Assembly: GCA_944324255.1 (NCBI GenBank)
Contig: CALUVM010000009.1
Coordinates: 211 to 64,210 of the forward strand
DNA from: Candidatus Gastranaerophilales bacterium
GTDB taxonomy: Bacteria; Cyanobacteriota; Vampirovibrionia; Gastranaerophilales; Gastranaerophilaceae
Direction: 5' to 3'
Length of the DNA stretch: 64,000 nucleotides
Below, piece by piece: positions 28,602-51,978 of this stretch (position 1 is its first letter; each line of letters begins with the position of its first letter). Under the pieces are notes generated by a model. That model did not search any database. It was not told the origin of the DNA and worked only from the letters and a program-made list of their open reading frames with translations. Position numbers and translations under genes: made by a program.

Positions 28602-30632
28602 CTACTTACCCATAGCGTAGGTTTTAACAACTGTTACAGATCCGTCAACGTTCTTACGAACACCTTTATCAATTTCTTCATCAAGGTCAGCTGCGAATGC
28701 TACCGGAGTGTATACTGAGTTTGCATCAATTGCTGCGTTGATTTGATCTCGCTGAAGGTTATTCAGGATTTTAACGTTATCGTGATCTTCCGGATTTGGA
28801 AGCGGTTCAGGGTCAGGACCAGGCTGGTCGCCGCCGTTTACTACAAGGTATGTAGTGTTGTTTGGTCTGCCGTTTTCGTTAACGTTTAATCCGTTTTCAC
28901 CGTTTGCCATATCATAAGTGATTTCTGTATTACCGTTGATTACAATTTCTTGAGCGTCACGAATATTTGTGTATTTCAAGTCATAATCTCTGCTTGCTGT
29001 TTCAACTGTTAAGTTATCAGTTTTATTGCCTACTCTGATTTGATTTGCGTGAACATCGTTACCTGTGATTTTCATATCATTTTCAGCTTCCAAGTAAACT
29101 TTATCGGCATTAACACCTGTTACATCAAGATTTGATTTAGAACCGATAGCTGCATATTGTGTATCAAGGTTTGTGATTGTACCGCCATCAACATACAGAA
29201 GAGATAATGTTGTCGGAGGAAGTAATTTATATCCTTCCATTGTTCCGATGAATTTTTCAGTTGAATCTAAACCGCCGACATATCCGTCTGCAATGAAGCT
29301 GTATTCATCGGCAGTCAAGGTTGCTTTTCCGTCAGTGATAATATTTAAAGTGCCTGATTCAAGAGCAATTGCTTGAGCTGTAGTATCAACCGATATACCG
29401 ATGCTGCCTTCTCTTGCCAAAGCATCAATAGTACCGTCTACATTTAAACTGCCTGCTGCGATTTGTCCTTCTTCAAAGTTATAACCGCCGATATGAATAT
29501 TATGAATTGAATCAATGTTTAAATTACCACCGATATTATTTTTTCCAACAAGGTGAACGTAATGTTTAATATGGTCATTTACACCTGTTGTAGTTTTTAA
29601 AGATACATTTCCGCCGGTTGTTAAATTACCGACTTCCATAACACCGCCGGCATTTGCTAATTTAACATCGCCGTCAACTTTTGCATTTGCTAAATACACC
29701 ATGCTGCCGAGGTTGTTGCCGGATTCCGCATCAATAATATTTGTTGAAGCGCTTCCTGTTGTTTTAGCATCCAAATTGCCTTTGACTTCAAAAACATTTT
29801 TATCAGGATTTGAGTAATTAAGTGCAATAACACCCTGTGAATCAATCGTTAAATCACCATTGATAGTTCCGCCGTTAACAACTTTAACAATATCTTCACC
29901 TGATAATATGTAAACATCCCCGTTAACACTTACGGTTTCTAATTTAACACCGGCATTAGCAATTTTTTGACCGTCAGCCGGAGCAACTAAATAGTCCTGA
30001 CCGTTTCTTGTAACGAGTTTGAATCCTTGTTCAGCTGTAATAATTGATTTTATAGCATTAACAGAAGGTGAAAGAATATTGAATTCACCGCCTACTGAAA
30101 AATCTGAATTCTGAATTGTTACACCGTTAATTGCAGCTTGATTTAATTTTGAAATATCTAACTGACCGTTAACATAGTTTACGCCGAGAGCTTGAGTTGT
30201 TAACATCAAGTCGCCGGCTGTAGTAAATTTAGCCCCGTCAAATAACATACCGTTCGGGTTAGATATAATTAATTTTGCAATACCATCGTTAGCATTAATA
30301 TTACCATAAATCTGAGACATCCCGCCGTTAACAGTATTAACAACCGTTAAATCGTTTGCTCCGTTTACGGCATTAAAGTTTAAACTTTCACCATTATTAA
30401 TATTTAAGGAACCCCAGTTAACATGAGCATTACCATTAAAATTAAGATCTACATTACCTGTACCGGCACCGTTCATACCGGCAAATCCGCCCTGTGTCGA
30501 GTCAATAACCGCACCGCCGATTCCGCCGCCTAAACCTGTATCCATTGCAGCAAATGAAATCTGCATTGTAGCGAACATTGTACATAGCGCGATGGCTGAT
30601 AGTTTTTTTGCAAAATTTCTCATAATTTTCAA
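28602..30632 (-). CDS. filamentous-haemagglutinin-type exoprotein with an N-terminal TPS (haemagglutination activity) domain
   Basis: Signal peptide, then NFNGNAHVNWGSLNINNGESLNFN ... LIISNPNGMLFDGAKF (NPNG motif). Followed by beta-helix-like G/N/T-rich repeats and a Pro-rich linker near the C-terminus. Confidence 0.75.
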   Translation of the reverse strand: MKIMRNFAKKLSAIALCTMFATMQISFAAMDTGLGGGIGGAVIDSTQGGFAGMNGAGTGNVDLNFNGNAHVNWGSLNINNGESLNFNAVNGANDLTVVNTVNGGMSQIYGNINANDGIAKLIISNPNGMLFDGAKFTTAGDLMLTTQALGVNYVNGQLDISKLNQAAINGVTIQNSDFSVGGEFNILSPSVNAIKSIITAEQGFKLVTRNGQDYLVAPADGQKIANAGVKLETVSVNGDVYILSGEDIVKVVNGGTINGDLTIDSQGVIALNYSNPDKNVFEVKGNLDAKTTGSASTNIIDAESGNNLGSMVYLANAKVDGDVKLANAGGVMEVGNLTTGGNVSLKTTTGVNDHIKHYVHLVGKNNIGGNLNIDSIHNIHIGGYNFEEGQIAAGSLNVDGTIDALAREGSIGISVDTTAQAIALESGTLNIITDGKATLTADEYSFIADGYVGGLDSTEKFIGTMEGYKLLPPTTLSLLYVDGGTITNLDTQYAAIGSKSNLDVTGVNADKVYLEAENDMKITGNDVHANQIRVGNKTDNLTVETASRDYDLKYTNIRDAQEIVINGNTEITYDMANGENGLNVNENGRPNNTTYLVVNGGDQPGPDPEPLPNPEDHDNVKILNNLQRDQINAAIDANSVYTPVAFAADLDEEIDKGVRKNVDGSVTVVKTYAMGK

Positions 30633-33200: not shown

Positions 33201-33986
33201 ATGAGCTTAGATAAAATAGATTTTAGCAATATAACTTTTACAGGTAATTCTTTACCGGAATTCAAGTTCAACTTTACTACTGTTTCAACCCCATTTTATG
33301 GAGGAAACTGGGGCTGGTATAACTCTCCAATGTTTTTCGGCAATACCATGAATTTATCCGGAGGAATATTTAATTGGGAAAATTTATATAACCCTGAACA
33401 GCCGCAAAAATTCGATTTCTCCAAGTTATGGGAAGCAGTAAGCAGTAACAATAATTCAACAAACCCCTCTTTATTTTCTTTCTCATGGGAAAACTTTAAA
33501 CCTGCCGCAATATGGAATTCCGGCACAAAAAAAAGCAGCGATACAGACTATGCAGCTCTGAGCAGGAGCAGTGCACTGGAAGCCGCAGCCAAAGACCCTA
33601 ATCTGGAAAAATTAACAGGCGGCAAGGGCTGGTCAATCAGTGAGAGTTCTTTTATAAATGATATACCTTATGCCAGAAAAGGCGTTAGTACAATTCTAAC
33701 CAGAGCTGCAGAGCTTACGGGAGAAACCCTTGTTGTAACATCTGCACTCGGAACAAAAGATTCACCGCACGCAAAAGGAACCAGCGAGGCAAGCCACTAT
33801 AACAGCAAAAATCCTAAACTTGATTTCGGCGGCGGCTTAAGCCTTTCTGCGGCAGAAGCATTGAAAAAGAAATTAGATGATACAGGCTTATTCTCCAGAG
33901 TCGATGTTGAAAAAGACGGGGATACGGCACACCTTGATGTCCAAATTGCAAGCAGTGCCTTTGAAAAAATAGATACCCTTGCTTAA
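33201..33986 (+). CDS. hypothetical protein; the C-terminal third weakly resembles the Hedgehog/DD-peptidase (M15-like) zinc-binding fold
   Basis: LVVTSALGTKDSPHAKGTSEASHYNSKNPKLDF ... DTAHLDV resembles the S-x-H...D...H-x-D pattern, but the spacing is non-canonical. Good SD. Confidence 0.45.
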   Translation: MSLDKIDFSNITFTGNSLPEFKFNFTTVSTPFYGGNWGWYNSPMFFGNTMNLSGGIFNWENLYNPEQPQKFDFSKLWEAVSSNNNSTNPSLFSFSWENFKPAAIWNSGTKKSSDTDYAALSRSSALEAAAKDPNLEKLTGGKGWSISESSFINDIPYARKGVSTILTRAAELTGETLVVTSALGTKDSPHAKGTSEASHYNSKNPKLDFGGGLSLSAAEALKKKLDDTGLFSRVDVEKDGDTAHLDVQIASSAFEKIDTLA

Positions 33987-35077: not shown

Positions 35078-35258
35078 CATAATCCCTGCTCTATACAGAG
35101 TATTTTTAAAAATTTTCTACACTAAATGGATGATTTTTCATTTTTATCATAATAAATTTACAGCTCCCTAATATATAATGATAGTAGGAATATTGACTTC
35201 AAAAAAAAGATTATTAAAAACCATATTAACAACAAATACTAAATAGGAGAATAAGTCT

Positions 35259-36845
35259 ATGGGAATGGCAGCATCTCAAGCCAGATACTTAGCTCTGGTT
35301 GCTAGAAAATCCAATTGCGAATATGAAGGACAGCAAATTAACCAGGCACGGACTGTGCTTTCTAATCAAAGTGCAAATCTGTTTAACCAGATGTTAGGAT
35401 TGTCAGTACCTGTACCTCCTAGTACTCAAGATTATACAAAAGTACAATACTCATATTCAGATGGGTCAAATGATTCAGTTATAGACAGCTGGCAGCAATT
35501 ATCCAGTGCTGATCCTGATTACAACTATGTAGTAACTCATTACTACTATACAGACCGGTATACCGGTTCCATGAAAAGATTATCAGACCCGCAAGTCCAA
35601 TTCTCCGGCGGGACAAATGCAACCATTGCGCAAATTACAGCTGCTCAAAACCTTGTTACACAAACAAAGCAAGCTTATGAAGATGCCGTAGCTGCACGTC
35701 AGGATATGGAAGCTCAAGCAGCAACACTGTCAAATTATACAGACAGAACAACGTATACCGGCATTAACGAAAGCACCTATAATGCCGAAACAGATACATA
35801 TTCATTCAGAACAAGAGATATGACCGCAGGTGAATACCATAACTATACCGGCTATAATTCTCTTGACCCTGATGATCAAGCTTTGGTGCTTGCAGGTATT
35901 CAAAGGCTTATTGATGAAGGCGCACTGGATTTAGATCCAGAAAATCCTGACTTAACAGAAATTTATTATGATGCTGAAACAGGTGACATTGCATTCAGCT
36001 CTGATCTTTCAAGCCTTTATGGCGGCACGAGCGGCGGTTCGCAAACAATATTACCGGTGCTTCATCTAACCGGAGCTCAGTCTATTGGCAATATAGCTAA
36101 TGAATATGATGACCAGATAGATGCCCTTAGAGAAGCTGAAGAGACAGCCAAAGGCGCTTATGATGCAGCCGTATTTGATTATGAATCTTTACAGCGTCCT
36201 ACTTATATCGGAAACAGCGAGTTGACATTGCTGACTTCTTTAACAAAAGATCAGGAAGCTGAAATAAGGCAGGTTGTCGCAGATTTAAAAGAACAGGGCA
36301 TTGATGCCGATATTGTAAACTGCTACAGCGAGGATGGCGGATATCAGGGCGGTATTTATTCATTCCAGCTTAACGGTACAACTTATTATACGACATATCA
36401 AGACCTGTTAAATTCATACTCAAGCGGAACGGGAAATAATCATATTGACGGACAGGCAAAATTGAATTATTACAACGCCAGCTATGTTTCTACAAGAATA
36501 GAAGAAACAGAAAAAGCACTTTTAGAAACTGACGGAAACGGCAGATTCACAAGTGTTCGCTTTGAAAATGATTCTGTAACTTATACCTTAAATATGGAAA
36601 CGGTTACTGATGAAGATGCATATCAGGATGCAATGAACCAGTATTACTATGATAATGCTGTGTATGATAAAACCGTACAAGATATTAATGCACAAACTTC
36701 ATTAATTCAACAACAAGACTTACAACTTGAATTAAGACTTAAACAGCTTGATACAGAACAAAGCGCACTGTCTACAGAAATGGAAGCTGTTAAGAAAGTT
36801 GTTGATGATAACGTTGAAAGTTCATTTAAAACCTTTAACGGATAG
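35259..36845 (+). CDS. hypothetical 528-aa protein with conserved N- and C-terminal helices and a Tyr/Thr/Asp-rich variable middle; no signal peptide
   Basis: Strong SD aggaga. Both termini resemble the 109-aa ORF at 38363. No known family recognised. Confidence 0.7.
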   Translation: MGMAASQARYLALVARKSNCEYEGQQINQARTVLSNQSANLFNQMLGLSVPVPPSTQDYTKVQYSYSDGSNDSVIDSWQQLSSADPDYNYVVTHYYYTDRYTGSMKRLSDPQVQFSGGTNATIAQITAAQNLVTQTKQAYEDAVAARQDMEAQAATLSNYTDRTTYTGINESTYNAETDTYSFRTRDMTAGEYHNYTGYNSLDPDDQALVLAGIQRLIDEGALDLDPENPDLTEIYYDAETGDIAFSSDLSSLYGGTSGGSQTILPVLHLTGAQSIGNIANEYDDQIDALREAEETAKGAYDAAVFDYESLQRPTYIGNSELTLLTSLTKDQEAEIRQVVADLKEQGIDADIVNCYSEDGGYQGGIYSFQLNGTTYYTTYQDLLNSYSSGTGNNHIDGQAKLNYYNASYVSTRIEETEKALLETDGNGRFTSVRFENDSVTYTLNMETVTDEDAYQDAMNQYYYDNAVYDKTVQDINAQTSLIQQQDLQLELRLKQLDTEQSALSTEMEAVKKVVDDNVESSFKTFNG

Positions 36846-36883
36846 TCTGATTAAATTTATTAGAAAATGTATAAGAGGCTACT

Positions 36884-37729
36884 ATGGCATACAAAAACGA
36901 CGGATACCTTGTAATAGCAAACAGATATGGCTCGGCATCATCAGATGCAAAGTCTATGCTGTATGAAACTTATGACAGGTTAAGGGATTTAACTGTTGCA
37001 GGTTCTGTTGGAACAGGTACGGGATTTGAAGCTGCAGGCGGCTTTTTATATCAATTAGCCAGTTTATTTGCACCGTCAGCCTTTATGACAACTTTAGGCG
37101 GAACAACCGCAATGAACATTCCGGGAACATCATACTGGTCGCAATATACAGGCGGCACAGGCGGACTTACCGGCTCTTACTCATCTTTCGGGGTTAACAG
37201 TCTTGGTAATTACTCTGGTTTCCCGAGCGGCTATGCTTCAAGCCTTAGCGGATATACAACAGGCGGAGCATCCTCAATTGGAGATTTACTGTACGGTTAT
37301 GGTTCTTCTTCCGGAACAGCTACCGGATATGCTTCAGGAATCGGAAGTATTGCAGACATTGCAAGCGCTGCAGCATACGGAGTAGGAACCGCAAACGGTT
37401 ACGGAGTCGGTGCTGCTAACATTTTAATGCCATTAGCAGGACTTGTTTCAGGATGGGGCGGAATTATGACAGCAGCTGCGCCTTATTTAGGTGAATTTGG
37501 TCTGCCGGCAGTTGTTATGGGAAACTTAATGCAAGGAACTACCTCTGCTGCCTTATCTGCATACCAATCTGTTTCTCAAAATGTACTATCAAATGCTGAT
37601 ACAATTCTCTCTCAAAAAGTTGCAAACATTGAAACTGTTGTAAAAATGCTTGATACTCAAAGTGATATTGTAAGAAAAATGTTAAAAGACGATCTGGAAA
37701 GCAACAGTCAGGAAATTGAAAACTTATAA
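36884..37729 (+). CDS. hypothetical Gly/Ser/Tyr/Thr low-complexity protein with a hydrophobic Gly-rich segment and a helical C-terminus
   Basis: SD aagagg, 38 nt after the previous gene. SYG/GYG-type repeats across about residues 60-200. Confidence 0.65.
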   Translation: MAYKNDGYLVIANRYGSASSDAKSMLYETYDRLRDLTVAGSVGTGTGFEAAGGFLYQLASLFAPSAFMTTLGGTTAMNIPGTSYWSQYTGGTGGLTGSYSSFGVNSLGNYSGFPSGYASSLSGYTTGGASSIGDLLYGYGSSSGTATGYASGIGSIADIASAAAYGVGTANGYGVGAANILMPLAGLVSGWGGIMTAAAPYLGEFGLPAVVMGNLMQGTTSAALSAYQSVSQNVLSNADTILSQKVANIETVVKMLDTQSDIVRKMLKDDLESNSQEIENL

Positions 37730-38071
37730 TTCTAATACCATGCAAGGACGTACTTTTTTTAGAATAATGATTGACAATCTGCTTGTTAACAATGCTTTAT
37801 GCCGGGCATTGTCCGCTTTCGTAAATTTTTGTAACGAACAGAGGTATTATAATAGAAAAGAATTAAAGTTTTTGAAAAAAATGCCGTTAAATAATATTAA
37901 AGATAATAGTGTTTATTCAAAGAAGTTTATCTTTAATAATACAAAACATTCCGGAGCAAGCTTTAAATAAGATGTTAACATTTGTAACAAAAAAACTGAA
38001 TATACGGCAATTATTAACGTTCACATGTTTTATTATACATGTAGGTTCTTTATGTATAGGAGAAAAAGCCT

Positions 38072-38341
38072 ATGCGTGAGGAAATACAAACAAATATAAA
38101 ACGGTTAGTGAACTTTATGAATTTTGCCCGCTCGTTTTTTGTACGGAAAAATCCATTCAAGGCACTGGCTGTAAGTTTAATTTCAAGCCTCAAGGAAATG
38201 CTCACAATCAGACAAAAGCTGAAAATGGCAAAGTACAGGGTTAACTATCACAAGCACCAGCTGTATAAAATGGAAAGCTTGATAGCAGAAAGTAATGAAC
38301 ACACATTCCTGAAAGGTAAGAACTTAAACGAAACCAGATAA
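38072..38341 (+). CDS. hypothetical small basic helical protein (89 aa)
   Basis: SD aggaga 8 nt upstream. First gene of a tight three-gene unit. Confidence 0.5.
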   Translation: MREEIQTNIKRLVNFMNFARSFFVRKNPFKALAVSLISSLKEMLTIRQKLKMAKYRVNYHKHQLYKMESLIAESNEHTFLKGKNLNETR

Positions 38342-38362
38342 CCAAACCGGAAGGAAAAGTGT

Positions 38363-38692
38363 ATGGGATTAATTACATCAACATATAGAATGATGTACCT
38401 GACAGCCTACAAGCTGACTTTGGAATCAAAGCTTCAGTGGATAGCAACTGCAAAAATGGAATTGGTTGCATCTTCCGATGAAATTTTGTCATTAGGAAAC
38501 GATCTTGATCCGGACAATCCGGCTGTTAAGCAACTGGAAGCCAGACGAGAACGTTTAACTGTACTGGAGAAAAAATTAGATATTCAAATGCAGGAATACC
38601 AGACAAGATTAGACATGGTTAATGCAGAACTCCAATCCTGTAAGAGTGCAGTAGATTCAAGTATACAAAACTCTTTCAGCTATCATTTTTAG
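38363..38692 (+). CDS. hypothetical 109-aa helical-hairpin protein, a minimal paralog of the 528-aa protein
   Basis: By eye, 12 of the first 34 residues are identical to the 528-aa protein without gaps. Shared C-terminal K..VD..(V/I)(E/Q).SF motif. Confidence 0.65.
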   Translation: MGLITSTYRMMYLTAYKLTLESKLQWIATAKMELVASSDEILSLGNDLDPDNPAVKQLEARRERLTVLEKKLDIQMQEYQTRLDMVNAELQSCKSAVDSSIQNSFSYHF

Positions 38693-38699
38693 GAAATAA

Positions 38700-39920
38700 A
38701 TGAAAATTAATGTCATTAATAACTATAGCTTGACTCACAACAATAGAGAAACAAGCTTTCATAAGACCGCAGCTAATCCGGTGTGCAATAATTCGAGAAA
38801 TGAAGCACACCAGAAAGTATTTTCAAGCCATTTAGGTTTTCGGGGCGGAATACCTTTAACCAGTCTGGTTAATGATTATAAGTGGTTTATTAATAATGAC
38901 AAACTTCCGGCAATTAATTCTTTTTTGAAAATTGAAGCCCCTAAAGAATCTTTAAACCAATTATTAAAATATATTTTATCTAATAATGATACAAGCTATG
39001 AGTTTATTGACAGTCTTGTCAACCAGCCAAGAAATATTTCACAAATTTACAGACAACTCAATGAAAAATTACCTTTTGATGCAGATATTCTTGATATGTA
39101 TTCTCCAAATAGTTTGTACTTAAAAGCTTATGAAAAATATATGGATGAACGTTATAAAAATGCTTCATCCGTATCAGAGCTACTAAAAATTCGTCCCGAC
39201 TGGAGAGAAGACGTTCTGCTGAACAAACACAGAGAACTGTATCATAATAATGATTTTGAATTAGGATTCGTTCCTGATAGTATCGGAGCAGAAAACTTTA
39301 ATCAACTGGCAGAGCATCTGCGTAAGTATTGTACAATAGGATTTAAAGTCCAAAAAGAGATTCCGGATTTAAATATTAACGGTAAATGCTTCAAATTTAA
39401 ACAATATATTGACGGAAAATCAGATAAAAATGTATTTAGAATTGATACTCCGGATGGAGAAAAATTCGTTATCAAGATGGCTTCTCCTTCTCAAAACGGA
39501 TTAAATCTTGCAGCCGGATTAGGAACTCTGAGTCTGGTTGATACTTATTTAACACAAAATAAATGCAGAAATGCTGCTCCATTGAGATACTATAACAAAA
39601 ACAACAATATAGCTATATATGATCATATTAATCACAGTACAGTTGAACAAATACGAACATCAATAAGTGATTTATCCGCTAAAATGCCTGATTTTAAAAA
39701 TCTCGGGCTTGAAATTAATGATACTATCGGGGCTAATAATTATTTCAAACTGGAACCGTCACAAAAAGCAATGGAATCGGCTTATGATTTTAACTATGGA
39801 ATTTTGCATGATGAAGTTGTATCGGTTGATAATGACCATTCCACATATAGCCAGATTCTGTTTCCGATAATTGATAAATATCACAAATACCTGCCGAACG
39901 AAATGCACATGTTCTTCTAA
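38700..39920 (+). CDS. hypothetical 406-aa protein; the C-terminal half has possible protein-kinase-like fold signatures
   Basis: GKSDKNVFRIDTPDGEKFVIKM (G-loop/VAIK-like, K259), INDTIGANN (D341-x4-N346), VSVDND (D377). Motifs read by eye only. Confidence 0.6.
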   Translation: MKINVINNYSLTHNNRETSFHKTAANPVCNNSRNEAHQKVFSSHLGFRGGIPLTSLVNDYKWFINNDKLPAINSFLKIEAPKESLNQLLKYILSNNDTSYEFIDSLVNQPRNISQIYRQLNEKLPFDADILDMYSPNSLYLKAYEKYMDERYKNASSVSELLKIRPDWREDVLLNKHRELYHNNDFELGFVPDSIGAENFNQLAEHLRKYCTIGFKVQKEIPDLNINGKCFKFKQYIDGKSDKNVFRIDTPDGEKFVIKMASPSQNGLNLAAGLGTLSLVDTYLTQNKCRNAAPLRYYNKNNNIAIYDHINHSTVEQIRTSISDLSAKMPDFKNLGLEINDTIGANNYFKLEPSQKAMESAYDFNYGILHDEVVSVDNDHSTYSQILFPIIDKYHKYLPNEMHMFF

Positions 39921-42156: not shown

Positions 42157-43482
42157 TTATGCATATTGAGTAATAATTGTATTAAAAGCTGAAGCTACCT
42201 GCGGGTTGACATCTTTATCTTTTTTAATTATTTGACCAACCTCAAACAGAAGTTCCTGCTGACCCTGCTCGGTTTTTAATTTATTATTAACGTTGATCTG
42301 GTTAGCTATATCATCTCCGACAAGAGCTTTTGTAACTTTTCCGGTGAGCCACATACCAATTGCACCGCCTACCATACCGATAACACCGCCTATTGCAGTT
42401 CCTACACCAGGGCCGAAGAATGTTCCTATTTTAGCACCCAGAGCACCTGCTGCCCAGATACCGGCTGCTTCACCTGCTGCCCAACCTGCTGCGTTGCCTA
42501 AAGCTTTTACGGTTGTCTGTCCTAATTGTTTCATACCATAGTTCTGGGAAGCTTTACCTGCTGCCTTGTCTTCTTTATCTTTTGCAAATGCAGTTTTAAT
42601 ATTACCCATACCGAAGAAGAGTTCTATTCCTGCAAACAGAAGAGATGCGCCAATACCGCCTTTTTTCAAAGCCTGTTTGAATGTCGGGTTAAGCGGCGTT
42701 TTAAGAAGACCTTTAGTATTATTAGCAATTGTTGTTTTATCTGCTATTCTTGAAGCTACTGAAGGAAGTTCATTTTTTGAACCGGTGAAGAAGTTTTTAA
42801 CACCGTTAGTGAATTTGAACCAGCCGCCGTTATTTACATAAGCATGTTTTAATGTTTCGGAAGCTTTTGCTATTTCATCAATATTATTTGATTTTAAAGC
42901 TCGTTCCATTATTTCTTTTAATTGTTTATATTCCTCTGCTGAATATTTCTTTCTGAACAATCCAAGCTTCCAGTATTTACGGCTGGATGCTTTATGCATC
43001 TGGAAATATGCTTCCTGCATTACCTGATAGTTCTTATCCCAGAGAGCTTTAATATTCGGATCTTTGAACATTTTATGAACATCTCCGCTTCCTATTAAAG
43101 AGTTTATCGGGTGTGCTAAATAGCGGGGATTATTCATAACAGCACCCATAACACCCATGCCCATAATCGCACTGCCCAGGCTTTCAGAAGGGCTTAAAGA
43201 CTTAGCGTAATAATTTGCAAGAGTCTGCATATCTTTATTGTTTTGAAGGTTTGCGGAGGTTTGTTCTGCCTGTGCATTTGCTAATGCTGCTGAATTATAA
43301 TCATAAGCTGAATTATAATACATATCAGGATTAAGATATCCGTATGCATTAGCTAAAGAGTCATAAGAATTATAAGGTACGCCTGTATAATTATTAAAAT
43401 AATTCGGAACGGACATATTCAATCCAGGTGCTCCGTAAAGCATTGTTTCCATATTTAAGAGTGATTGAATTGGTGCTACCAT
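42157..43482 (-). CDS. hypothetical 441-aa protein: Tyr/Asn-rich N-terminus, helical middle, C-terminal glycine-zipper membrane segment
   Basis: NYFNNYTGVPYNSYDSLANAYGYLNPDMYYNSAYDYN, and GWAAGEAAGIWAAGALGAKIGTFFGPGVGTAIGGVIGMVGGAIGMWL. No signal peptide. Confidence 0.65.
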   Translation of the reverse strand: MVAPIQSLLNMETMLYGAPGLNMSVPNYFNNYTGVPYNSYDSLANAYGYLNPDMYYNSAYDYNSAALANAQAEQTSANLQNNKDMQTLANYYAKSLSPSESLGSAIMGMGVMGAVMNNPRYLAHPINSLIGSGDVHKMFKDPNIKALWDKNYQVMQEAYFQMHKASSRKYWKLGLFRKKYSAEEYKQLKEIMERALKSNNIDEIAKASETLKHAYVNNGGWFKFTNGVKNFFTGSKNELPSVASRIADKTTIANNTKGLLKTPLNPTFKQALKKGGIGASLLFAGIELFFGMGNIKTAFAKDKEDKAAGKASQNYGMKQLGQTTVKALGNAAGWAAGEAAGIWAAGALGAKIGTFFGPGVGTAIGGVIGMVGGAIGMWLTGKVTKALVGDDIANQINVNNKLKTEQGQQELLFEVGQIIKKDKDVNPQVASAFNTIITQYA

Positions 43483-43629: not shown

Positions 43630-46600
43630 ATGAAAGTTGAAAGTATACATTCCAAAGCTAATATTAAATTCGGAAGCAAAAGAACCGCAAGAAATATAAC
43701 AGAGCAGCTGGCTAAAAATAATCAATATTCTTTAACAGAGCCTAATCAAAGACAAATAACAAACTCAATAAAAGAACTCGCAAAGGTTCCGGGAGAAAAA
43801 AATGTAAACTTTCTTCTTGATACAGCATCAAAAGTTAAATATTCTACGAATATAAAACTTAAAAACGCTCCCAAACACAATTGGAAGAATTTGCTTCTTG
43901 CTGCTGCAACGACTGCCGCACTTATTACTCCGGCTATATTAAAAGACTCTTTTAATAAAAAGATAAATGAGATTCAAAATAATAAAAATTTGAGCAATGA
44001 AGAAAAAGAAATCTTAAACCTTAGAAAGAATCTTTTAAAATCAGCCGACCTGAAACAGATAAAAAAAGAAACCGTAGGTTCTATTAAAGATTTTGAAGCC
44101 AATCTTGATTATTTTATAGTATCAAGTGAAACAACAACAGAACATAAAAAGTATGTGCTTGAAAAGCTCAATTATTTTATGAGTGATGATTATCAAATTA
44201 ATCCTCAATTAAAAGATAAAAAGTCTATTGCTCTGGCTGAAATAGTTAACGATATGGCTCTTAACTCACCGGAAGAAAACATCCCTAATATTAAAGCTGT
44301 TAACCAAAAACAACACGGTATGTGTGCCGCAATTTCAATTGTCAGGAAAAAACTTGCATATGAAGATAAGCCTAATTACATAGACGCAATCCTTTCCGAG
44401 CTGGATTCAACCCCTTATCTTACTGTCTATGACAGAAATAAACTTTTTAGCAAAGAAAAAATACAGGTTCAAAAAGTTCCGGTAGACTTTGAAACAGCTC
44501 TTGCAAACGGATACAGGATTATTGATGCTTCAACCATGCACTGGATGCAAGTCGCTCAAATGTCAGGTTCAAGCAGTCTTGCGTATGATGAATACAGACC
44601 GTTTGATAAAGAAAATTTTGATGTAAATAAAGATGCTTTTTATAATGTCGGATTTGATGATCCAAAGCTCCAAAAGACCCAAAATTATTTTCAGGCGCTA
44701 AAAAAAGCTGAATCTGTACTCGCTGATTTAAAAGCTAATTATTTAAAAAAAGAAGAAATTAATAGTGATAAAAGAAATCGCTTTAACAAAAGAATTTCAA
44801 CTCTCCGTCAGATAAACGAAAGTCTGAGCAGAAATATCGCCTCACTAGACACCGGTCTGTCTGCCAATGAAATCCAGACTTTATTATCCGGTATTTTAAA
44901 ACTTAACAAACACTTTTCAGATAAAATTAACCCTGACGACAAATTTTCATATATTCCAAATGAAGAAACATCTGTCAAAAAAAATAAAATTAAAGGATAT
45001 ATAATTGAAAACAGTTCAATAAAAGATATTCCCGATGAAATTCTGGACAAAATTTATGATTTTGTTGAATTTCATTCATCTCTTCAAGGCAATCCGGCGA
45101 ACAAAAATAAAGCTATTACAGAAGCAAGAAGTTTATATAATGCAGCAGCAGCTTTCAGATACCAGATGATAAAAGGTTTAGATGAAGAAACTATGCTTGC
45201 GGGTTTTATCCGCAGTGAAGGTTTGAAGAATAAAGAATCTCTTCTGCTTGATACAGTTGATACGGCGATGTATAAGATTGACACCGACTCAGAGGATTCA
45301 AATGCTATAATAGAAAACCTTCTGACTGTTTTTGACCTTAAAAACCCTTCTAAAGAAAATGTTCTGGCATTACTTGGCGAATTAAAAGATTCCATAAATA
45401 CTATTCTTACTGATGAACTTGATTCAATATATGAAAAATTAACAATCCCCGGGGGAAGACGGGGTGCTTTAATTACCCAGCTTGAAGGCATAAAAAACCA
45501 GGCTCTCGCCGGAGATAAAGAATCCGGCTATGCACTGAAAGAAATTTTAAATATTAAAAAGCATTCAGATATTGAAGAAGCTGTCAGAGATTTGCAAACA
45601 GATATCTCTAATTGTGATGACGAAAGTTTTTTAGAAATATTTGACAATTTACACAATGTTTCACAAATTGAAAATATTGAAAATACATTCAACAATCTTA
45701 TTCAGGCAATGAACGGGGAAAATCAGCAAGAAATTATTTCAAGATTTGCGGAAGTTAATAATATAGCAGAAGGTCTTAGCGAAGATTTATTAAATCAAAT
45801 ACTTAATGAAATCGGAACTCAAATACAAACATACAAAAACTTTATTGAGAACTTGTATAAAGTTTTTACTGTTACGGATAAAGACGGAGAGATTATTATT
45901 TCACCTAACCCTAAAGATATAATTATAAAAAAATGGGAAAATGAAAAAACTATTATCCCTGCAAAAGACCTGAAAGAACTGCAAGAACACTTTACTAAAA
46001 TATCAAAAGACCGTTCGCAGGATGAATTTTCTACAAGGCAGGGAAAATTGCACGACAAAAGTCTGTATCAATTTTCCAGCAATGAAAAAGCTACGCTTAA
46101 TGAAATTAAAAAGAACATCAACCCGATGTTTTCCTATATTCAAAAACAAATACCTGCAGTACAGAAAGAATTAAAAGAACCTTTAGAAGAACTCAAACGC
46201 ATAGTAGGCTTACATAACGGAAGCTACTGGGTTAGAGAAGAAGGGCATTCCGGCTTGACTTCTGAAGAAGAAGTTAGGGTTCTTGAATACATGACAGGAC
46301 GCCCGCATTATGAAACTACAGACTTAAGGTTTGCTATGGAAAAAATTAAGAATTCCCCGTATTCAGGAATTTCCAGCTCTTCTGTCTATGATGATGCAAT
46401 GGGATGGCACGCTCAATATATAGCAGATATAAGACCGGTGAAAATAAAGAATAAGGAAGGCAAGGAAGAAGAAAAAGAAGTCTTGTTCCACGACAACAGC
46501 TGGGGAGCCTCCGAATACGAAAACACCTGGGTTGATTCAAACGGACTTACAAGAACAGACTACAGCGATAATAGAGGAGGCTCACTCGGGTATATTACAA

Positions 46601-49401
46601 ATAATAAATTCCAGAACGGAAACTTCACCGACAGAATTTTGAATGATATGGTTTTAAAAGAAAAACCTGACCTGACCAGAAATAAAATATACAAAAAATT
46701 AAAACATGTCGATAACAACCTTAATAACCTTCCTCAAATGTCAGGCATTATTCTGGAAGGATATTCTCCGAATACAAAATCAATTGCAGCAGAAATCCAC
46801 GATGCAATGTTTATTCCGTCACTTTCATTGATGGGGAAATTGGAAAAACTTGCAAAAGAACTTTCTCCGGAAGAAGTAAAAAATTTAATCAAACAAACCG
46901 AAACCGCTGCTACAGGATGGGAAAAAACTTATAATAACCTTCAAAAGAGATTGTATTCACCTTTTGAGAAGAAAATTCAAACAAAAGAAGATTATGACAA
47001 ACTGCCTGATAATGACTATTTAAAAGTTGTGCTTGAAAAAGTCGCACTTAAATGGAATTATCAGATAAACGGGCTTGAAAATGAACTTGCAAAAGTAAAA
47101 AATACCAAAGACTTATCAAAGTTCCGTTCTGCACAAAAAAACAGAGCTATTAATAGTTTTAAATATGCCTTTTTTAAGGATATTAACGCTATAGATTTTG
47201 TCTGCAACGAGTTTGGAGATAGCGAATACGATAAAATCGATAACATTCTTGATAAATACAACATTAAATTGACCAATAAAGAACTTTATTCAATCGTGAC
47301 AAATTTCGAGCTGGGAACGGAAGATTTTGACGGAAGTGTTAAAAATACTGTTAAACTATTCCTTGACAGTATCAAATCCGATTTGGATAAAGTAGTTGCT
47401 AATGAAGAAGCTAAAAAAGAAATCCTTAATATCTACAAAGAGTTCTTTGAAAAAACAGCTTATTTTAATAACAAAGACATTGCTGACGGAAACCTCAAAA
47501 ATATAATTAATTTTATTGATCGTGAATATTCTCCTAATGATGATGAAGAATTAGTAAATATATACAGAAAACTTCAAGACATGACCACAGAGGAATTCAA
47601 AAAAGAAGTTTTATCCAAGGTTAATAATAAAGATCTCGGAATTAAAAACTATACGGGCTATGACATTTTGAAAAAACTGCAGCGTTATGAAAGCAGTGCC
47701 GATACAGCTTTTATGAATACCATTTATTATGATACATTCTACGCTAACTACGGACAAACCGATTTCAAAAAAGCTTATCGTTACAAACGCTTCGCAAGAG
47801 AAGCTATGTATAATAATAAATATAATGTCAGCTCAATATACAGAGAAATGGCTTATGATTTATCATATCTAACCCTGCCTAAACTCTTTAACAAATATAA
47901 AGACCGCAATCTTGATAAATACGGCGCCTATCCAGCATATCCAAAACTTGAATACTTAAATGAAGATTCTCTCGGATACTCATATAACTCCTTCATAGAC
48001 TCCCTTGACTATAAATACGAAGCTATTAAAGCTTTGCAAGACCAGATAAAATCTTATGAACTTGCAAATCAGCTGTTAAATTATTTAAAGAAATATGATA
48101 ACAGCAAACCCGTTACCGGAGTTCTATACAGGAATTTAAACCTAATCTTCGGCAGCCTCATTTTGAATGCCGATGACAATGACCCGGTAATGGAACCGCT
48201 GATTGATGCGGCGGAAAAGGCAATGGAACTGGGAAAAGGATCTTTATTTAATGAATATAAGCCTTATATTAATACAATAATATCCACAATAGAAGAACTT
48301 AAAAATACAACATCAAAAGAAGCTCTGGAAAATGCTCTCAGAGTTGAAAAAAATTCGCTGCACGAAACTATAAAAGTTTTTGCAAAGAGCCTTATTCAAG
48401 AAAAATACAGAGATGATGTAATTTCTATTGCAAATAAATATATACAGGCACTTATTAAATACAAAAACGAAGATATAGAAACCCTGCCTGACGAACTTTA
48501 TGAGGCTTTCTCTAAATATCATATTTTAAGAAACCCGAAAGAACTGTTGGAAGCTTATATTCTGTCAGTTGCAAAAGATTCTCCTGACAGCAAGTATCTT
48601 GAAACCTACAGGACACTCATGACAAGGGGGCTGCAATATGCACAGCTGGCAAATATTCAAGATATATTAATGGGAGCAGTTTCAAAAGGGGTGGAAACCA
48701 GTGTAAAAGATATGTTTAAAAACTACAAGCTTCACAATGCCTATGGTGAAGAAACATCTATGAACTCTAAGGATATTCTTGCACAGATGATTCATAAGCT
48801 CATCATTGATAACGAAAGAGAAACCGCTCTTATGTTCATTGACAAACTTGGCATAGGAGAAGATTATATCAAATATCTTTCAGAATCGATAGACTTTGAT
48901 AATCTAAAGAATATACTCAAAGAAGCTTTTGATACCGCTAACAACTTCAACGCCTTTACACAGGAATCGGAAACTTATCTTGACGAAGCCAGAGAACTTT
49001 CTATTGAAGAAGAAAATTATGAACAAATTCTTGACCTTGCTAAAAACAAAATACTCAGAACAGCAAAAAAACATAAAATTAACAACAAAGAAATTCTCCC
49101 GCTTATCAATGCATTAGATGCCATTAAAAAGGTCTATGCAGACCATCCGGACGGAAACAGACAAGTTCTGTTTGATTCAGTTATGATGAGTGCCAAAGAA
49201 CAAACAACAAGTCTTGCAACCACTAAGGTTAATAATTTAAATCTTATTCTAAACTCAAATGCAACTATTCTTGACCTTGTAAATCAACTTCTTCTTAAAG
49301 AAGATTCCGAGGCTAATAAGCTCAGAACCGAAATGAATGAAAAATTTAAGAAACTGATTGAATACAAGAGCAGTCTTTCTAATTTGCAACAAGAAGAATA
49401 A
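43630..49401 (+). CDS. giant 1923-aa mostly helical protein with a putative split papain-like (clan CA) cysteine peptidase core
   Basis: SD aagagg. NQKQHGMCAAISIV (Q226/C232), GWHAQYIADI (H927), FHDNSWGAS...GGSLGYI (D955/N956). Hydrophobic segment at about residues 85-104. Confidence 0.75.
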   Translation: MKVESIHSKANIKFGSKRTARNITEQLAKNNQYSLTEPNQRQITNSIKELAKVPGEKNVNFLLDTASKVKYSTNIKLKNAPKHNWKNLLLAAATTAALITPAILKDSFNKKINEIQNNKNLSNEEKEILNLRKNLLKSADLKQIKKETVGSIKDFEANLDYFIVSSETTTEHKKYVLEKLNYFMSDDYQINPQLKDKKSIALAEIVNDMALNSPEENIPNIKAVNQKQHGMCAAISIVRKKLAYEDKPNYIDAILSELDSTPYLTVYDRNKLFSKEKIQVQKVPVDFETALANGYRIIDASTMHWMQVAQMSGSSSLAYDEYRPFDKENFDVNKDAFYNVGFDDPKLQKTQNYFQALKKAESVLADLKANYLKKEEINSDKRNRFNKRISTLRQINESLSRNIASLDTGLSANEIQTLLSGILKLNKHFSDKINPDDKFSYIPNEETSVKKNKIKGYIIENSSIKDIPDEILDKIYDFVEFHSSLQGNPANKNKAITEARSLYNAAAAFRYQMIKGLDEETMLAGFIRSEGLKNKESLLLDTVDTAMYKIDTDSEDSNAIIENLLTVFDLKNPSKENVLALLGELKDSINTILTDELDSIYEKLTIPGGRRGALITQLEGIKNQALAGDKESGYALKEILNIKKHSDIEEAVRDLQTDISNCDDESFLEIFDNLHNVSQIENIENTFNNLIQAMNGENQQEIISRFAEVNNIAEGLSEDLLNQILNEIGTQIQTYKNFIENLYKVFTVTDKDGEIIISPNPKDIIIKKWENEKTIIPAKDLKELQEHFTKISKDRSQDEFSTRQGKLHDKSLYQFSSNEKATLNEIKKNINPMFSYIQKQIPAVQKELKEPLEELKRIVGLHNGSYWVREEGHSGLTSEEEVRVLEYMTGRPHYETTDLRFAMEKIKNSPYSGISSSSVYDDAMGWHAQYIADIRPVKIKNKEGKEEEKEVLFHDNSWGASEYENTWVDSNGLTRTDYSDNRGGSLGYITNNKFQNGNFTDRILNDMVLKEKPDLTRNKIYKKLKHVDNNLNNLPQMSGIILEGYSPNTKSIAAEIHDAMFIPSLSLMGKLEKLAKELSPEEVKNLIKQTETAATGWEKTYNNLQKRLYSPFEKKIQTKEDYDKLPDNDYLKVVLEKVALKWNYQINGLENELAKVKNTKDLSKFRSAQKNRAINSFKYAFFKDINAIDFVCNEFGDSEYDKIDNILDKYNIKLTNKELYSIVTNFELGTEDFDGSVKNTVKLFLDSIKSDLDKVVANEEAKKEILNIYKEFFEKTAYFNNKDIADGNLKNIINFIDREYSPNDDEELVNIYRKLQDMTTEEFKKEVLSKVNNKDLGIKNYTGYDILKKLQRYESSADTAFMNTIYYDTFYANYGQTDFKKAYRYKRFAREAMYNNKYNVSSIYREMAYDLSYLTLPKLFNKYKDRNLDKYGAYPAYPKLEYLNEDSLGYSYNSFIDSLDYKYEAIKALQDQIKSYELANQLLNYLKKYDNSKPVTGVLYRNLNLIFGSLILNADDNDPVMEPLIDAAEKAMELGKGSLFNEYKPYINTIISTIEELKNTTSKEALENALRVEKNSLHETIKVFAKSLIQEKYRDDVISIANKYIQALIKYKNEDIETLPDELYEAFSKYHILRNPKELLEAYILSVAKDSPDSKYLETYRTLMTRGLQYAQLANIQDILMGAVSKGVETSVKDMFKNYKLHNAYGEETSMNSKDILAQMIHKLIIDNERETALMFIDKLGIGEDYIKYLSESIDFDNLKNILKEAFDTANNFNAFTQESETYLDEARELSIEEENYEQILDLAKNKILRTAKKHKINNKEILPLINALDAIKKVYADHPDGNRQVLFDSVMMSAKEQTTSLATTKVNNLNLILNSNATILDLVNQLLLKEDSEANKLRTEMNEKFKKLIEYKSSLSNLQQEE

Positions 49402-49418: not shown

Positions 49419-50243
49419 ATGGCAGATTTAGTGGAAAAACTTAAAGAAATAGGCTTCAATTCATATGAAGCAAAGGTGTATATTGCCCTTCTTAAAAAAT
49501 ATCCTATGACAGGCTATGAAACATCAAAATTAGCCAATATCCCGCAAGCCAGAACTTATGACACCCTGAAATCTCTTGAAGAAAAAGGAGTTGTTGCTGC
49601 TGCAAATACAAAACCTGTAACCTATACACCTCTTAAGCCTAAGCAATTGCTGTCAAGCTACCAGCGGAAAATGAACTCCACTATAAACTATCTGGAGAAG
49701 CACCTGCCGGAAGTTAAAGACAGTTATAATGAGCCAATTATAACTATTTCAGGAAAACAAAATATTCAAAATAAAATCCTCGAAGTTATCCAGAATGCTA
49801 AGCGAGAAATTTATATGGAAATCTGGTCACAGGATTTTAAGATTTTTGAACAGGAACTTTTAAACGCATATAACAGAAATGTTGAAATAAGAATTGTAGG
49901 ATATGATAACTTCTCTTCAAAATTCGGTCTTATTTTTGAACACGCTTTTGCAAGAGATATAGAAATGTCCCTCGGCGGCAGGATGGTCATCATAGCCGCT
50001 GATGATTCTGAAGGTATTGTCGGTAAGATTTCATCTTTTAAAAATGACTTATTTGATACAAATATAATCTGGACTCAAAATAAAAGTATCGTTTTTATTA
50101 TAAAAGAATTCATTGTTCATGATATGTACTTAATTGATGTAGAAGAAAACCTCGTTGAGCAGATGAAATACATCTACGGCAAAGGCTTTAAGCGGCTGAA
50201 AGATAAAGTTCTGGGGGCGAATTCACTTTATATGATACATTAA
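49419..50243 (+). CDS. TrmB-family transcriptional regulator
   Basis: The N-terminal winged helix LKEIGFNSYEAKVYIALLKKYPMTGYETSKLANIPQARTYDTLKSLEEKGVV is a typical TrmB HTH. Confidence 0.8.
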   Translation: MADLVEKLKEIGFNSYEAKVYIALLKKYPMTGYETSKLANIPQARTYDTLKSLEEKGVVAAANTKPVTYTPLKPKQLLSSYQRKMNSTINYLEKHLPEVKDSYNEPIITISGKQNIQNKILEVIQNAKREIYMEIWSQDFKIFEQELLNAYNRNVEIRIVGYDNFSSKFGLIFEHAFARDIEMSLGGRMVIIAADDSEGIVGKISSFKNDLFDTNIIWTQNKSIVFIIKEFIVHDMYLIDVEENLVEQMKYIYGKGFKRLKDKVLGANSLYMIH

Positions 50244-51910: not shown

Positions 51911-51978
51911 CTCTCTTCCTTCTAATAATTTATAAGTATCATATTTTAGGCAAAAAGTAAAGGATACCGGAGTCAAAA

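What the first reader, a model, noticed from the sequence alone, without database searches (positions are those of the whole stretch)
35259..39920. Five-gene block of unassignable proteins (two tight transcription units) is a candidate undescribed structural or assembly system
Unit 1 contains the 528-aa terminal-helix protein and, 38 nt later, a 281-aa Gly/Ser/Tyr low-complexity protein. After a 340-nt gap, unit 2 contains an 89-aa basic helical protein, the 109-aa minimal paralog and a 406-aa protein with kinase-like motifs, with gaps of 21 and 7 nt. All five have good SD sequences and none has a signal peptide. There are no mobile-element genes, and the flanks are ordinary genes (porin, 5-formyl-THF cyclo-ligase, ilvD), so this looks like a lineage-specific chromosomal module rather than an island. 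A variable and a minimal subunit of one family, a low-complexity protein and a putative regulatory enzyme together suggest a filament, matrix or secreted-substrate system. This is a hypothesis only.
Basis: inference. Interest (0 to 1): 0.75.

Follow-up and report, generated by a model that had tools for sequence, protein, structure and literature searches.

The report
Conserved hairpin-protein cassette of Vampirovibrionia

Summary
All five ORFs exist at exactly the stated coordinates. None matches Pfam, NCBIfam, PHROGs, PADLOC or PDB sequences.

Comparison of about 170 related loci redraws the unit. The kinase-like E follows D only in the window's own clade (5 loci), so it is a neighbour, not a member.

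A and D belong to one undescribed superfamily. They share an N-terminal helix (MGLxASQxRL..L..RK.DLE) and a C-terminal helix (..SVKKVIDKNIE..FKTF). Any insertion sits at the hairpin tip and ranges from 0 to about 650 aa. In Vampirovibrio-like genomes the A position holds a 109-aa minimal hairpin, still followed by B. B, C and D are under strong purifying selection; the middle of A is hypervariable.

The cassette lies among core housekeeping genes, and no real phage or plasmid record carries it.

Function is not established. My best reading (about 0.4) is a self-assembling structural polymer. The terminal helices would form its core and the tip insertions would decorate it. It is probably exported without a signal peptide, with B as a partner and X and C as cytoplasmic helpers. 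A cytoplasmic scaffold is the main rival.

The parts
35157..35185 (+). Weak sigma-70-like promoter match (TTTACA-17-GATAGT) upstream of A. It is only a candidate.
   Evidence: The region holds fewer promoter-like matches than shuffled sequence, so this is not evidence of function.
35259..36845 (+). A: the A-type hairpin-superfamily protein, 528 aa, pI 4.1. Residues 1-120 and 300-528 are conserved; residues 121-300 are hypervariable with indels.
   Evidence: ORF. More than 4145 homologs without a Pfam domain or name. Conservation profile. AF2 mean pLDDT 79, with the N-terminal 45 residues at about 35 and a 75-residue C-terminal helix. No Foldseek match in PDB or BFVD.
35619..36158 (+). Hypervariable insertion at the hairpin tip of A (aa 121-300). 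It is absent from the minimal 109-aa A-type members and runs to about 650 aa in others.
   Evidence: dN is about 3 times that of the termini but still far below dS, so no positive selection is shown.
36884..37729 (+). B: a 281-aa Gly/Ser/Tyr-rich partner that always follows an A-type gene. It has a conserved N-terminal domain (MAYKNDGYLVIAN..YETYDRLRDLTVSG), a hydrophobic Gly-rich stretch at residues 176-212 and a conserved C-terminal helix.
   Evidence: It is 38% identical (E=2e-64) to the Vampirovibrio-like homolog. 109 of 112 B genes with upstream DNA have an A-type gene directly upstream. dN/dS 0.07.
37740..37970 (+). It fills most of the '340-nt gap' and has no Shine-Dalgarno sequence.
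   Evidence: The ORF is open in 39 of 44 loci with a conserved start. dN/dS 0.36. Gene callers called it in L081 and L082. An ORF of about 72-107 aa holds the same position in other orders.
38072..38341 (+). C: an 89-aa basic protein (pI 10.4), predicted helical. Its C-terminal half is nearly invariant (RQKLKMAKYRVNYHKHQL.KMESLIAESNEHTFLKGKNLNE.R).
   Evidence: dN/dS 0.056. Weak homologs follow B in Vampirovibrio-like loci.
38363..38692 (+). D: the D-type minimal member of the hairpin superfamily, 109 aa, with a DLDPDNP loop between two helices.
   Evidence: There are 236 clusters at 50% identity in 1.84 billion proteins. The tail of that search reaches long A-type proteins through their extreme N- and C-termini.
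38700..39920 (+). E: a 406-aa clade-specific neighbour with a divergent protein-kinase-like fold. It is not part of the conserved cassette.
   Evidence: 136 homologs without a Pfam domain. AF2 pLDDT 85.6. Foldseek hits are BubR1, RIOK2, Vps34, PRPF4B, DYRK1A, MPS1 and YihE. It is present after D in 5 loci only.

Best explanation
The cassette [A-type hairpin protein(s)] - B - X - C - [D-type hairpin protein] encodes a self-assembling structural polymer specific to class Vampirovibrionia.

In this model the nearly invariant N- and C-terminal helices of the A-type and D-type proteins pack into the core of a filament or lattice. The domain inserted at the hairpin tip (0 to about 650 aa, different in each paralog) points outwards and decorates the surface. 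A-type proteins would be the major, multi-copy subunit and D the minor one. B, with its Gly/Ser/Tyr-rich and hydrophobic Gly-rich segments, would be the matrix, anchor or membrane-active partner. The small basic proteins X and C would stay in the cytoplasm as assembly helpers or regulators. A and B are probably exported without a signal peptide.

Shown: the gene set, its conservation, the paralogy, the position of the insertion, and the lack of any known relative. Inferred: polymerisation, the roles of B, X and C, and the location.
For: (1) One superfamily with conserved termini and a free tip. D-profile hits run from 105-aa proteins to 535-650-aa proteins matched only at their two ends. Alignment A6 shows a continuum. 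A-type lengths upstream of B range from 109 to 771 aa.
(2) The termini are nearly invariant from Vampirovibrio-like (GC 53%) to Gastranaerophilales (GC 35%) genomes, while the middle is hypervariable.
(3) Genomes carry several A-type paralogs, in tandem or scattered, with different middles, but one B, C and D.
(4) The A-B adjacency is almost obligate: 109 of 112 loci.
(5) The cassette holds only small non-enzymatic proteins, and B, C and D are under strong purifying selection.
(6) AF2 folds the middle of A confidently but leaves the N-terminal 45 residues (pLDDT about 35) and the 75-residue C-terminal helix (about 60) unplaced. This is expected if they pack between subunits.
(7) A and B have the composition of this genome's exported proteins. 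The TSNGQY/KRE ratio is 3.8 for A and 8.4 for B, against 1.1-1.7 for cytoplasmic and 1.6-4.3 for exported proteins. X and C (1.6 and 1.0) look cytoplasmic.
(8) Only about 25% of Gastranaerophilales have a full flagellar gene set; the rest keep flhB, fliI and flgG, which have been proposed to act in secretion (bioRxiv 10.64898/2026.04.24.720558; PMC4040986). A signal-peptide-independent export route is therefore plausible in this lineage.
Against: No polymer has been observed or modelled, and no multimer prediction could be run. No secretion or assembly ATPase, usher or membrane channel is linked to the cassette in any of about 170 loci. None of the proteins has a signal peptide, which most simply means cytoplasmic. 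The composition argument is a heuristic. The low pLDDT of the A termini may only reflect a shallow alignment of 33 sequences with invariant termini. The middle of A shows relaxed constraint, not positive selection. No similarity to flagellin, needle, pilin or any other filament protein was found by sequence profile or fold.
Confidence: 0.4

Rival explanations
1. It is a cytoplasmic scaffold or cytoskeletal or membrane-remodelling system. The hairpins would assemble under the inner membrane, as ESCRT-III/PspA-type or coiled-coil scaffolds do. B would attach to the membrane through its hydrophobic Gly-rich segment. The variable tip domains would recruit lineage-specific clients.
For: No protein of the cassette has a signal peptide (sequence). 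The cassette is core-genomic, class-wide and strongly conserved, like cell-biology housekeeping genes. No export machinery is linked to it. The best, non-significant, PDB sequence hit of the D profile is an ESCRT-III Vps20 fragment (E=0.052). B has one moderately hydrophobic stretch (KD19 1.48).
Against: A and B have the composition of exported proteins rather than cytoplasmic ones. Multiple paralogs with freely varying, acidic, Thr/Ser/Asn/Tyr-rich tip domains are more typical of surface subunits. There is no Pfam match to PspA_IM30, Snf7, DivIVA or any cytoskeletal family. The 109-aa hairpin lacks helices 3-5 of ESCRT-III.
Confidence: 0.3
2. It is a secreted effector or pore-forming toxin set. 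A-type proteins would be alpha-helical toxins or effectors whose variable middle binds targets. B would be a membrane-inserting partner, and X and C would be immunity proteins or chaperones.
For: The central domain is variable between conserved helices and paralogs are multiple. B has a hydrophobic Gly-rich segment. V. chlorellavorus is a predator (PMC4451040, listed; its predatory habit is taken from the abstract).
Against: The cassette is universal and vertically conserved in core-genome contexts. B, C and D are strongly conserved, unlike fast-evolving, patchy toxin-immunity loci. The minimal A-type proteins have no middle domain at all. PADLOC and PHROGs give nothing. The cassette occurs equally in gut fermenters.
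Confidence: 0.08
3. It is a prophage remnant or mobile element cargo.
For: The only 'phage' record with a homolog is MW495066.1, Microcystis phage MaAM05.
Against: That record carries secDF, smc, scpAB and acpS, and its proteins cluster with Vampirovibrio chlorellavorus proteins. It is almost certainly bacterial DNA. There are no hits in IMG/VR, in 72,556 plasmids or in PHROGs. The base composition of the block matches its surroundings.
Confidence: 0.02

Closest known systems
Flagellin and other flagellar axial proteins (FliC, FlgE, FlgK, FlgL)
   Same: They share the architecture. Conserved N- and C-terminal helices come together, a hypervariable domain of very variable size is inserted between them, there is no signal peptide, several paralogs occur per genome, and the proteins are acidic and rich in Thr, Ser and Asn. 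The terminal helices are unplaced in the monomer model.
   Different: There is no sequence or fold similarity: no Pfam Flagellin_N or Flagellin_C hit at E<=1, no PDB profile hit, and the best Foldseek match to a flagellin has E=3.1. The minimal unit is 109 aa, far smaller than any flagellin. The conserved partners B, X and C have no flagellar counterpart. V. chlorellavorus, which carries the cassette, is reported to have flagellar genes of its own (the paper is listed; the flagellar detail is from my own knowledge of it).
Type III secretion needle and filament proteins (SctF: PrgI, MxiH, YscF; EspA)
   Same: Both are small helix-loop-helix hairpins of about 80-190 aa without a signal peptide. 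The D loop 'DLDPDNPA' and C-terminus '..IQNSF' recall YscF 'KPDNPALL' and PrgI 'IIQNFR'. That comparison is from my memory and is a lead, not a test.
   Different: No Pfam or PDB profile match at E<=10. The Pro-x-x-Pro loop is not conserved across D-type members. No injectisome genes were seen in any locus.
WXG100/Esx and PE/PPE helical-hairpin pairs of type VII secretion
   Same: Both are hairpins of about 100 aa, encoded next to a partner, in multi-paralog families without a signal peptide. PE_PGRS proteins likewise combine a hairpin with Gly-rich sequence (general knowledge).
   Different: There is no WXG or YxxxD/E motif and no Pfam hit. LXG/Lap chains appear only in the noise, at E about 0.3 to 1.6. 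The host is a diderm cyanobacterial relative, and no EssC/EccC ATPase is nearby. The extra domain is at the hairpin tip, not at the C-terminus.
ESCRT-III / PspA / Vipp1 superfamily
   Same: Both have a long alpha1-alpha2 hairpin that polymerises on membranes and a conserved N-terminal amphipathic start. Cyanobacteria have Vipp1.
   Different: The only hit is a non-significant match to a Vps20 fragment (E=0.052). There is no Pfam Snf7 or PspA_IM30 hit. Helices 3-5 are absent.
Protein-kinase-like fold (RIO, Bub1/BubR1, YihE, PI3K) - for E only
   Same: The AF2 model of E (pLDDT 85.6) finds only kinase-fold proteins with Foldseek. The invariant residues K259, D341-x4-N346/N347 and D377-N-D-H380 fit the beta3 Lys, the catalytic loop and the metal-binding Asp (the assignment is my inference).
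   Different: No Pfam or NCBIfam kinase model matches. TM-scores are only 0.25-0.35. E has an extra N-terminal helical domain (residues 53-208). It is not part of the conserved cassette.

Membership tests
Flagellin (Pfam Flagellin_N / Flagellin_C) | Significant match to the flagellin N- and C-terminal domain models | tested here: not met
   hmmscan against Pfam at E<=1 gives no flagellin family for A or D, nor for ten other superfamily members.
Flagellin (Pfam Flagellin_N / Flagellin_C) | D0/D1 fold similarity to solved flagellins | tested here: not met
   Foldseek of the A model against PDB: the best flagellin match is 3k8v at E=3.1, TM 0.11. PDB profile searches find no flagellin.
Flagellin (Pfam Flagellin_N / Flagellin_C) | Export by the flagellar type III apparatus and assembly on a hook | not testable with these tools
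   Only about 10 kb around each locus is held, and no flagellar genes lie in those flanks.
T3SS needle protein SctF | Match to needle protein models or solved needle subunits | tested here: not met
   Pfam gives no hit for D. The D and superfamily profiles against PDB find no PrgI, MxiH or YscF at E<=10.
T3SS needle protein SctF | Conserved P-(S/D)-(D/N)-P turn | tested here: inconclusive
   The window D has DPDNP, but other D-type members have DPDSD, DDNSP or ADDSP.
WXG100 / type VII substrates | WXG turn motif and a WXG100 model match | tested here: not met
   No W-x-G at the turn and no Pfam hit.
ESCRT-III / PspA / Vipp1 | Match to Snf7 or PspA_IM30 models, and a five-helix core | tested here: not met
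   No Pfam hit. The only hit is a Vps20 fragment at E=0.052. Minimal members are 105-115 aa, which leaves room for two helices only.
Phage structural or defence-system proteins | Match to PHROGs or PADLOC models, or presence in phage genomes | tested here: not met
   PHROGs and PADLOC give nothing at E<=0.01 for A, B, X, C, D or E; only a few hits at 0.02-0.08 for X, C and D. IMG/VR gives none. The single INPHARED hit is a mis-deposited bacterial contig.
Protein-kinase-like superfamily (E only) | Bilobal kinase fold | tested here: met
   The protein-kinase and RIO matches have probabilities of 0.85-1.0 (BubR1, RIOK2, PRPF4B, DYRK1A, MPS1, YihE) and the Vps34/PI3K matches about 0.3-0.6; a few top hits are not kinases at all. 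TM-scores are low, 0.25-0.35.
Protein-kinase-like superfamily (E only) | Catalytic Lys, the D-x4-N catalytic loop and a metal-binding Asp | tested here: inconclusive
   Invariant K259, D341, N347, D377 and D379 lie in the expected order. They were not mapped residue by residue onto a template. No sequence model matches.

The most novel reading that the evidence does not exclude
The A-type and D-type hairpins are the subunits of a previously unseen kind of bacterial surface filament, analogous to flagellin or needle filaments but unrelated to them. It would be exported without a signal peptide, possibly through the flagellar type III export core (FlhB, FliI, rod) that most non-flagellated Gastranaerophilales unaccountably retain. 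B would be its tip, base or membrane-inserting partner.
Probability: 0.12. Interest if true: 0.9.

Novelty: categorically new. Interest (0 to 1): 0.62.

Why it matters
Gastranaerophilales are widespread, uncultured members of human and animal gut communities, and Vampirovibrio is an algal predator. Their cell biology is known almost only from gene lists.

Here is a five-gene cassette that appears throughout the class. It sits in the core genome and is under strong purifying selection. It has thousands of homologs in public data and no annotation of any kind.

It also defines a new helical-hairpin superfamily, in which a 109-aa core tolerates insertions of up to about 650 aa at its tip. That design is so far known mainly from flagellins and related axial proteins.

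If the cassette builds a surface structure, the variable tip domains would be prime candidates for interaction with hosts, phages or prey, and for recognition by the immune system. If it is cytoplasmic, it would be a new bacterial scaffold system. Either way, the 109-aa minimal proteins of Vampirovibrio give a small and tractable starting point for experiments.

Tried and rejected
Family and structure searches that found nothing:
- Pfam, NCBIfam, PHROGs and PADLOC scans of all six proteins gave nothing usable.
- A Pfam scan of ten distant superfamily members gave nothing.
- PDB sequence-profile searches with the A, D, B and superfamily alignments gave only coiled-coil noise.
- Foldseek of the A model against PDB and BFVD found no match.
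- A literature search for the N-terminal motif strings found 0 papers. Searches on Melainabacteria or Vampirovibrionia ultrastructure found nothing relevant.

Ideas tested and dropped:
- B and the neighbouring 441-aa Gly-rich protein (42157-43482) are not related.
- Positive selection on the middle of A is not shown. dS is saturated even between the closest relatives and dN/dS is about 0.07.
- The neighbours of solitary A paralogs are housekeeping genes (murA, kdsA, lysC, lysA, recJ, dxs, by inspection), so they give no functional lead.
- The recurrent neighbours in other clades are tig-clpP-clpX, rpsA, purH and ilvC, which also give no lead.
- Phage or plasmid origin is rejected.

Attempts that failed:
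- The taxonomy of contigs carrying solitary distant members (L083, L087, L088) could not be established. Spread beyond Vampirovibrionia is therefore undetermined.

Full report
**1. What is in the sequence**

- A: 35259-36845, 528 aa
- B: 36884-37729, 281 aa
- C: 38072-38341, 89 aa
- D: 38363-38692, 109 aa
- E: 38700-39920, 406 aa

All are on the + strand. The gaps are 38, 342, 21 and 7 nt. A, B, C and D have recognisable Shine-Dalgarno sequences; E has a weak one. Base composition does not differ from the surroundings.

The flanks are a phosphate-porin-like protein, 5-formyl-THF cyclo-ligase and ilvD. The rest of the window is ordinary chromosome: mutL, topA, murT, a TolC/HlyD pair, an ABC exporter and polysaccharide genes.

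The organism is a member of Gastranaerophilales (class Vampirovibrionia, also called Melainabacteria). The closest locus, at 89% identity for A, lies in a Candidatus Gastranaerophilales MAG. Most of the 80 best genome hits carry Gastranaerophilales, Melainabacteria or Vampirovibrio labels; many are unlabelled ('uncultured bacterium') and three carry other labels (Muribaculaceae, Acinetobacter).

**2. None of the proteins has a known relative**

Pfam, NCBIfam, PHROGs and PADLOC give nothing usable for A, B, C, D, E or the extra ORF X. Profile searches of all PDB sequences with alignments of A, D, B and the wider superfamily return only coiled-coil noise.

An AlphaFold2 model of A (33-sequence alignment, mean pLDDT 79) has a confident mixed alpha/beta middle. 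Its N-terminal 45 residues are poorly placed (pLDDT about 35) and it ends in a 75-residue C-terminal helix. Foldseek finds nothing for it in PDB (best E=0.54) or in BFVD.

**3. The real unit**

I compared 80 genome loci found with A by tblastn and by all-against-all clustering of their ORFs. About 44 species-level genomes share the order A > B > X > C > D.

It is open in 39 of 44 loci and its start is conserved. Its pairwise dN/dS has a median of 0.36. Independent gene callers also called it. In DNA of 35% GC, a random 75-codon frame stays open with a probability of about 0.004 (my arithmetic). X is therefore a gene.

E follows D only in the window, L001, L013, L016 and L043. An E profile finds it in none of the other loci. 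E has 136 homologs of its own, but it is a clade-specific neighbour.

Median dN/dS values are 0.28 for A, 0.07 for B, 0.056 for C and 0.088 for D. B and C are thus the most constrained proteins, not A. B is not unconstrained low complexity: its whole length aligns at 64-99% identity across the order.

**4. A and D are one superfamily, with the insertion at the hairpin tip**

Direct comparison of A and D is weak: BLASTP gives E=1e-3 at the C-terminus, and hhalign of the family alignments gives E=8.6e-5 over residues 1-42.

The decisive result is a D-family profile searched against 1.84 billion representative proteins. It finds 236 clusters. Most are 105-115 aa. The tail contains proteins of 189, 249, 287, 300, 535 and 650 aa that match only at their extreme N- and C-termini.

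Their sequences share MGL[AS]ASQxRL..L..RK.DLE...Q.I at the start and ..TE[IM][DE]SVKK.I.KNIE..FK.F at the end. Some 109-aa members (P0482, for example) combine an A-like N-terminus with a D-like DLDPDS loop.

Within the A family, residues 1-120 and 300-528 are conserved, while residues 121-300 are hypervariable with indels. Lengths run from 419 to 764 aa.

**5. The cassette is class-wide**

A tblastn search of A against phage records hit only MW495066.1, 'Microcystis phage MaAM05'. That 274-kb record carries secDF, smc, scpAB and acpS. Its hairpin protein clusters at 90% or more with a Vampirovibrio chlorellavorus protein. It is almost certainly bacterial DNA.

In that record, a 109-aa A-type hairpin is followed by a 314-aa B homolog (38% identity, E=2e-64) and then by a weak C homolog.

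A metagenome scan with a B alignment gave 80 more loci, with GC from 30 to 59%. Local HMMs show the following over all loci held:
- 109 of 112 B genes with upstream DNA are directly preceded by an A-type gene.
- Eight of them are preceded by two A-type genes in tandem.
- A-type lengths include 109, 117, 140-155, 179, 249, 322-347, 416-449, 505-602 and 764-771 aa.
- Downstream come (X), C and D in most loci.

In Vampirovibrio-like genomes the D-type gene lies elsewhere. A divergent lineage keeps the X-C-D sub-unit.

The flanks differ between clades and are housekeeping genes: tig-clpP-clpX, rpsA, purH, ilvC. About 40 further A paralogs lie alone among housekeeping genes. No homolog occurs in 72,556 plasmids or in IMG/VR.

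**6. What it probably does**

The anatomy has these features:
- a two-helix core whose ends are nearly invariant across a whole class
- a tip that accepts anything from 0 to about 650 residues
- several A-type paralogs per genome but a single B, C and D
- no enzymes in the cassette

This is the anatomy of a self-assembling structural subunit. Flagellins are the best-known example of the design.

A and B also have the composition of the exported proteins of this same genome. The TSNGQY/KRE ratio is 3.8 for A and 8.4 for B, against 1.1-1.7 for cytoplasmic and 1.6-4.3 for exported proteins. X and C (1.6 and 1.0) look cytoplasmic.

The literature records that only about a quarter of Gastranaerophilales have complete flagellar sets. 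The rest keep flhB, fliI and flgG, proposed to act in secretion. A route for export without a signal peptide may therefore exist.

I therefore favour, at about 0.4, a structural polymer with a core of terminal helices and outward-facing tip domains. It is probably extracytoplasmic, with B as a matrix, anchor or membrane partner and X and C as cytoplasmic helpers.

All functional steps are inference. None of the following was found:
- an observed or modelled polymer
- a linked export machine
- positive selection in the middle of A

A cytoplasmic scaffold (about 0.3) explains the missing signal peptides and the core-genome status equally well. Toxin or effector and phage readings fit poorly.

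**7. E**

The model of E is good (pLDDT 85.6, pTM 0.83). Its Foldseek matches are mostly protein-kinase-fold proteins (BubR1 at E=9.5e-4, RIOK2, Vps34, PRPF4B, DYRK1A, MPS1, YihE), with low TM-scores of 0.25-0.35.

Invariant K259, D341...N347 and D377-N-D-H380 fit the catalytic positions. Nothing ties E to the cassette beyond adjacency in one clade.

**8. Verdict**

It is wrong about membership (E out, X in) and about the two operons. Its functional hypothesis remains untested.

The cassette and the hairpin superfamily lie outside every family and fold library I could search. I rate the finding as categorically new in kind, with moderate to high interest (0.62).

Noticed in passing
window 50240-51982 (-): A 580-aa protein has an MptE-like domain (E=5e-34) and a weak Maf_flag10_N match. 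This resembles the Maf glycosyltransferases that decorate flagellins. It lies about 10 kb downstream of the cassette, next to two paralogous ORFs with no Pfam match (51979-52869, 52866-53729). Its substrate is unknown, and A would be a speculative candidate.
   Followed up: partly
window 43630-49401 (+): A 1923-aa protein has no Pfam, PHROGs or PADLOC match. It is conserved next to the 441-aa protein in several relatives (L001, L005, L039).
   Followed up: no
window 42157-43482 (-): A 441-aa protein has a Tyr/Asn-rich N-terminus and a Gly-rich hydrophobic C-terminal region. That region matches only the Gly-rich segment of phage tape-measure proteins (phrog_794, E=5e-9), which is probably a compositional match. 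It is not related to B. It stays syntenic with ilvD in the window's clade.
   Followed up: partly
L090 = MW495066.1 124602-140925: The GenBank/INPHARED record 'Microcystis phage MaAM05' (273,876 bp) carries secDF, secF, acpS, smc, scpA and scpB. Its proteins cluster with Vampirovibrio chlorellavorus proteins. It looks like a bacterial (Vampirovibrio-like) contig deposited as a phage.
   Followed up: partly
window 28602-30632 (-) and relatives (cluster c13 in L001, L004, L006, L008, L044): A 676-aa protein has a TPS (two-partner secretion) domain. One or two copies are conserved upstream of the beta-lactamase-like gene in the window's clade. It shows that large exported adhesin-like proteins are encoded close by.
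   Followed up: no
window 33201-33986 (+) and cluster c8 in relatives: The 261-aa ORF upstream of the porin is replaced in many relatives by a protein of about 240-320 aa. That protein has a Phe/Asn/Ser-rich low-complexity N-terminus and a conserved C-terminal domain. Neither has a Pfam match.
   Followed up: no
window 55748-58546 (-): A 932-aa ORF has no Pfam match. It lies between an alcohol dehydrogenase gene and a polysaccharide-synthesis gene cluster.
   Followed up: no
L103, L104, L106, L109, L111, L112, L114, L119: In several lineages the A-type gene is tandemly duplicated upstream of B. The two copies are of similar length (about 140-155, 326-344 or 434-435 aa) but have diverged in sequence.
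   Followed up: partly
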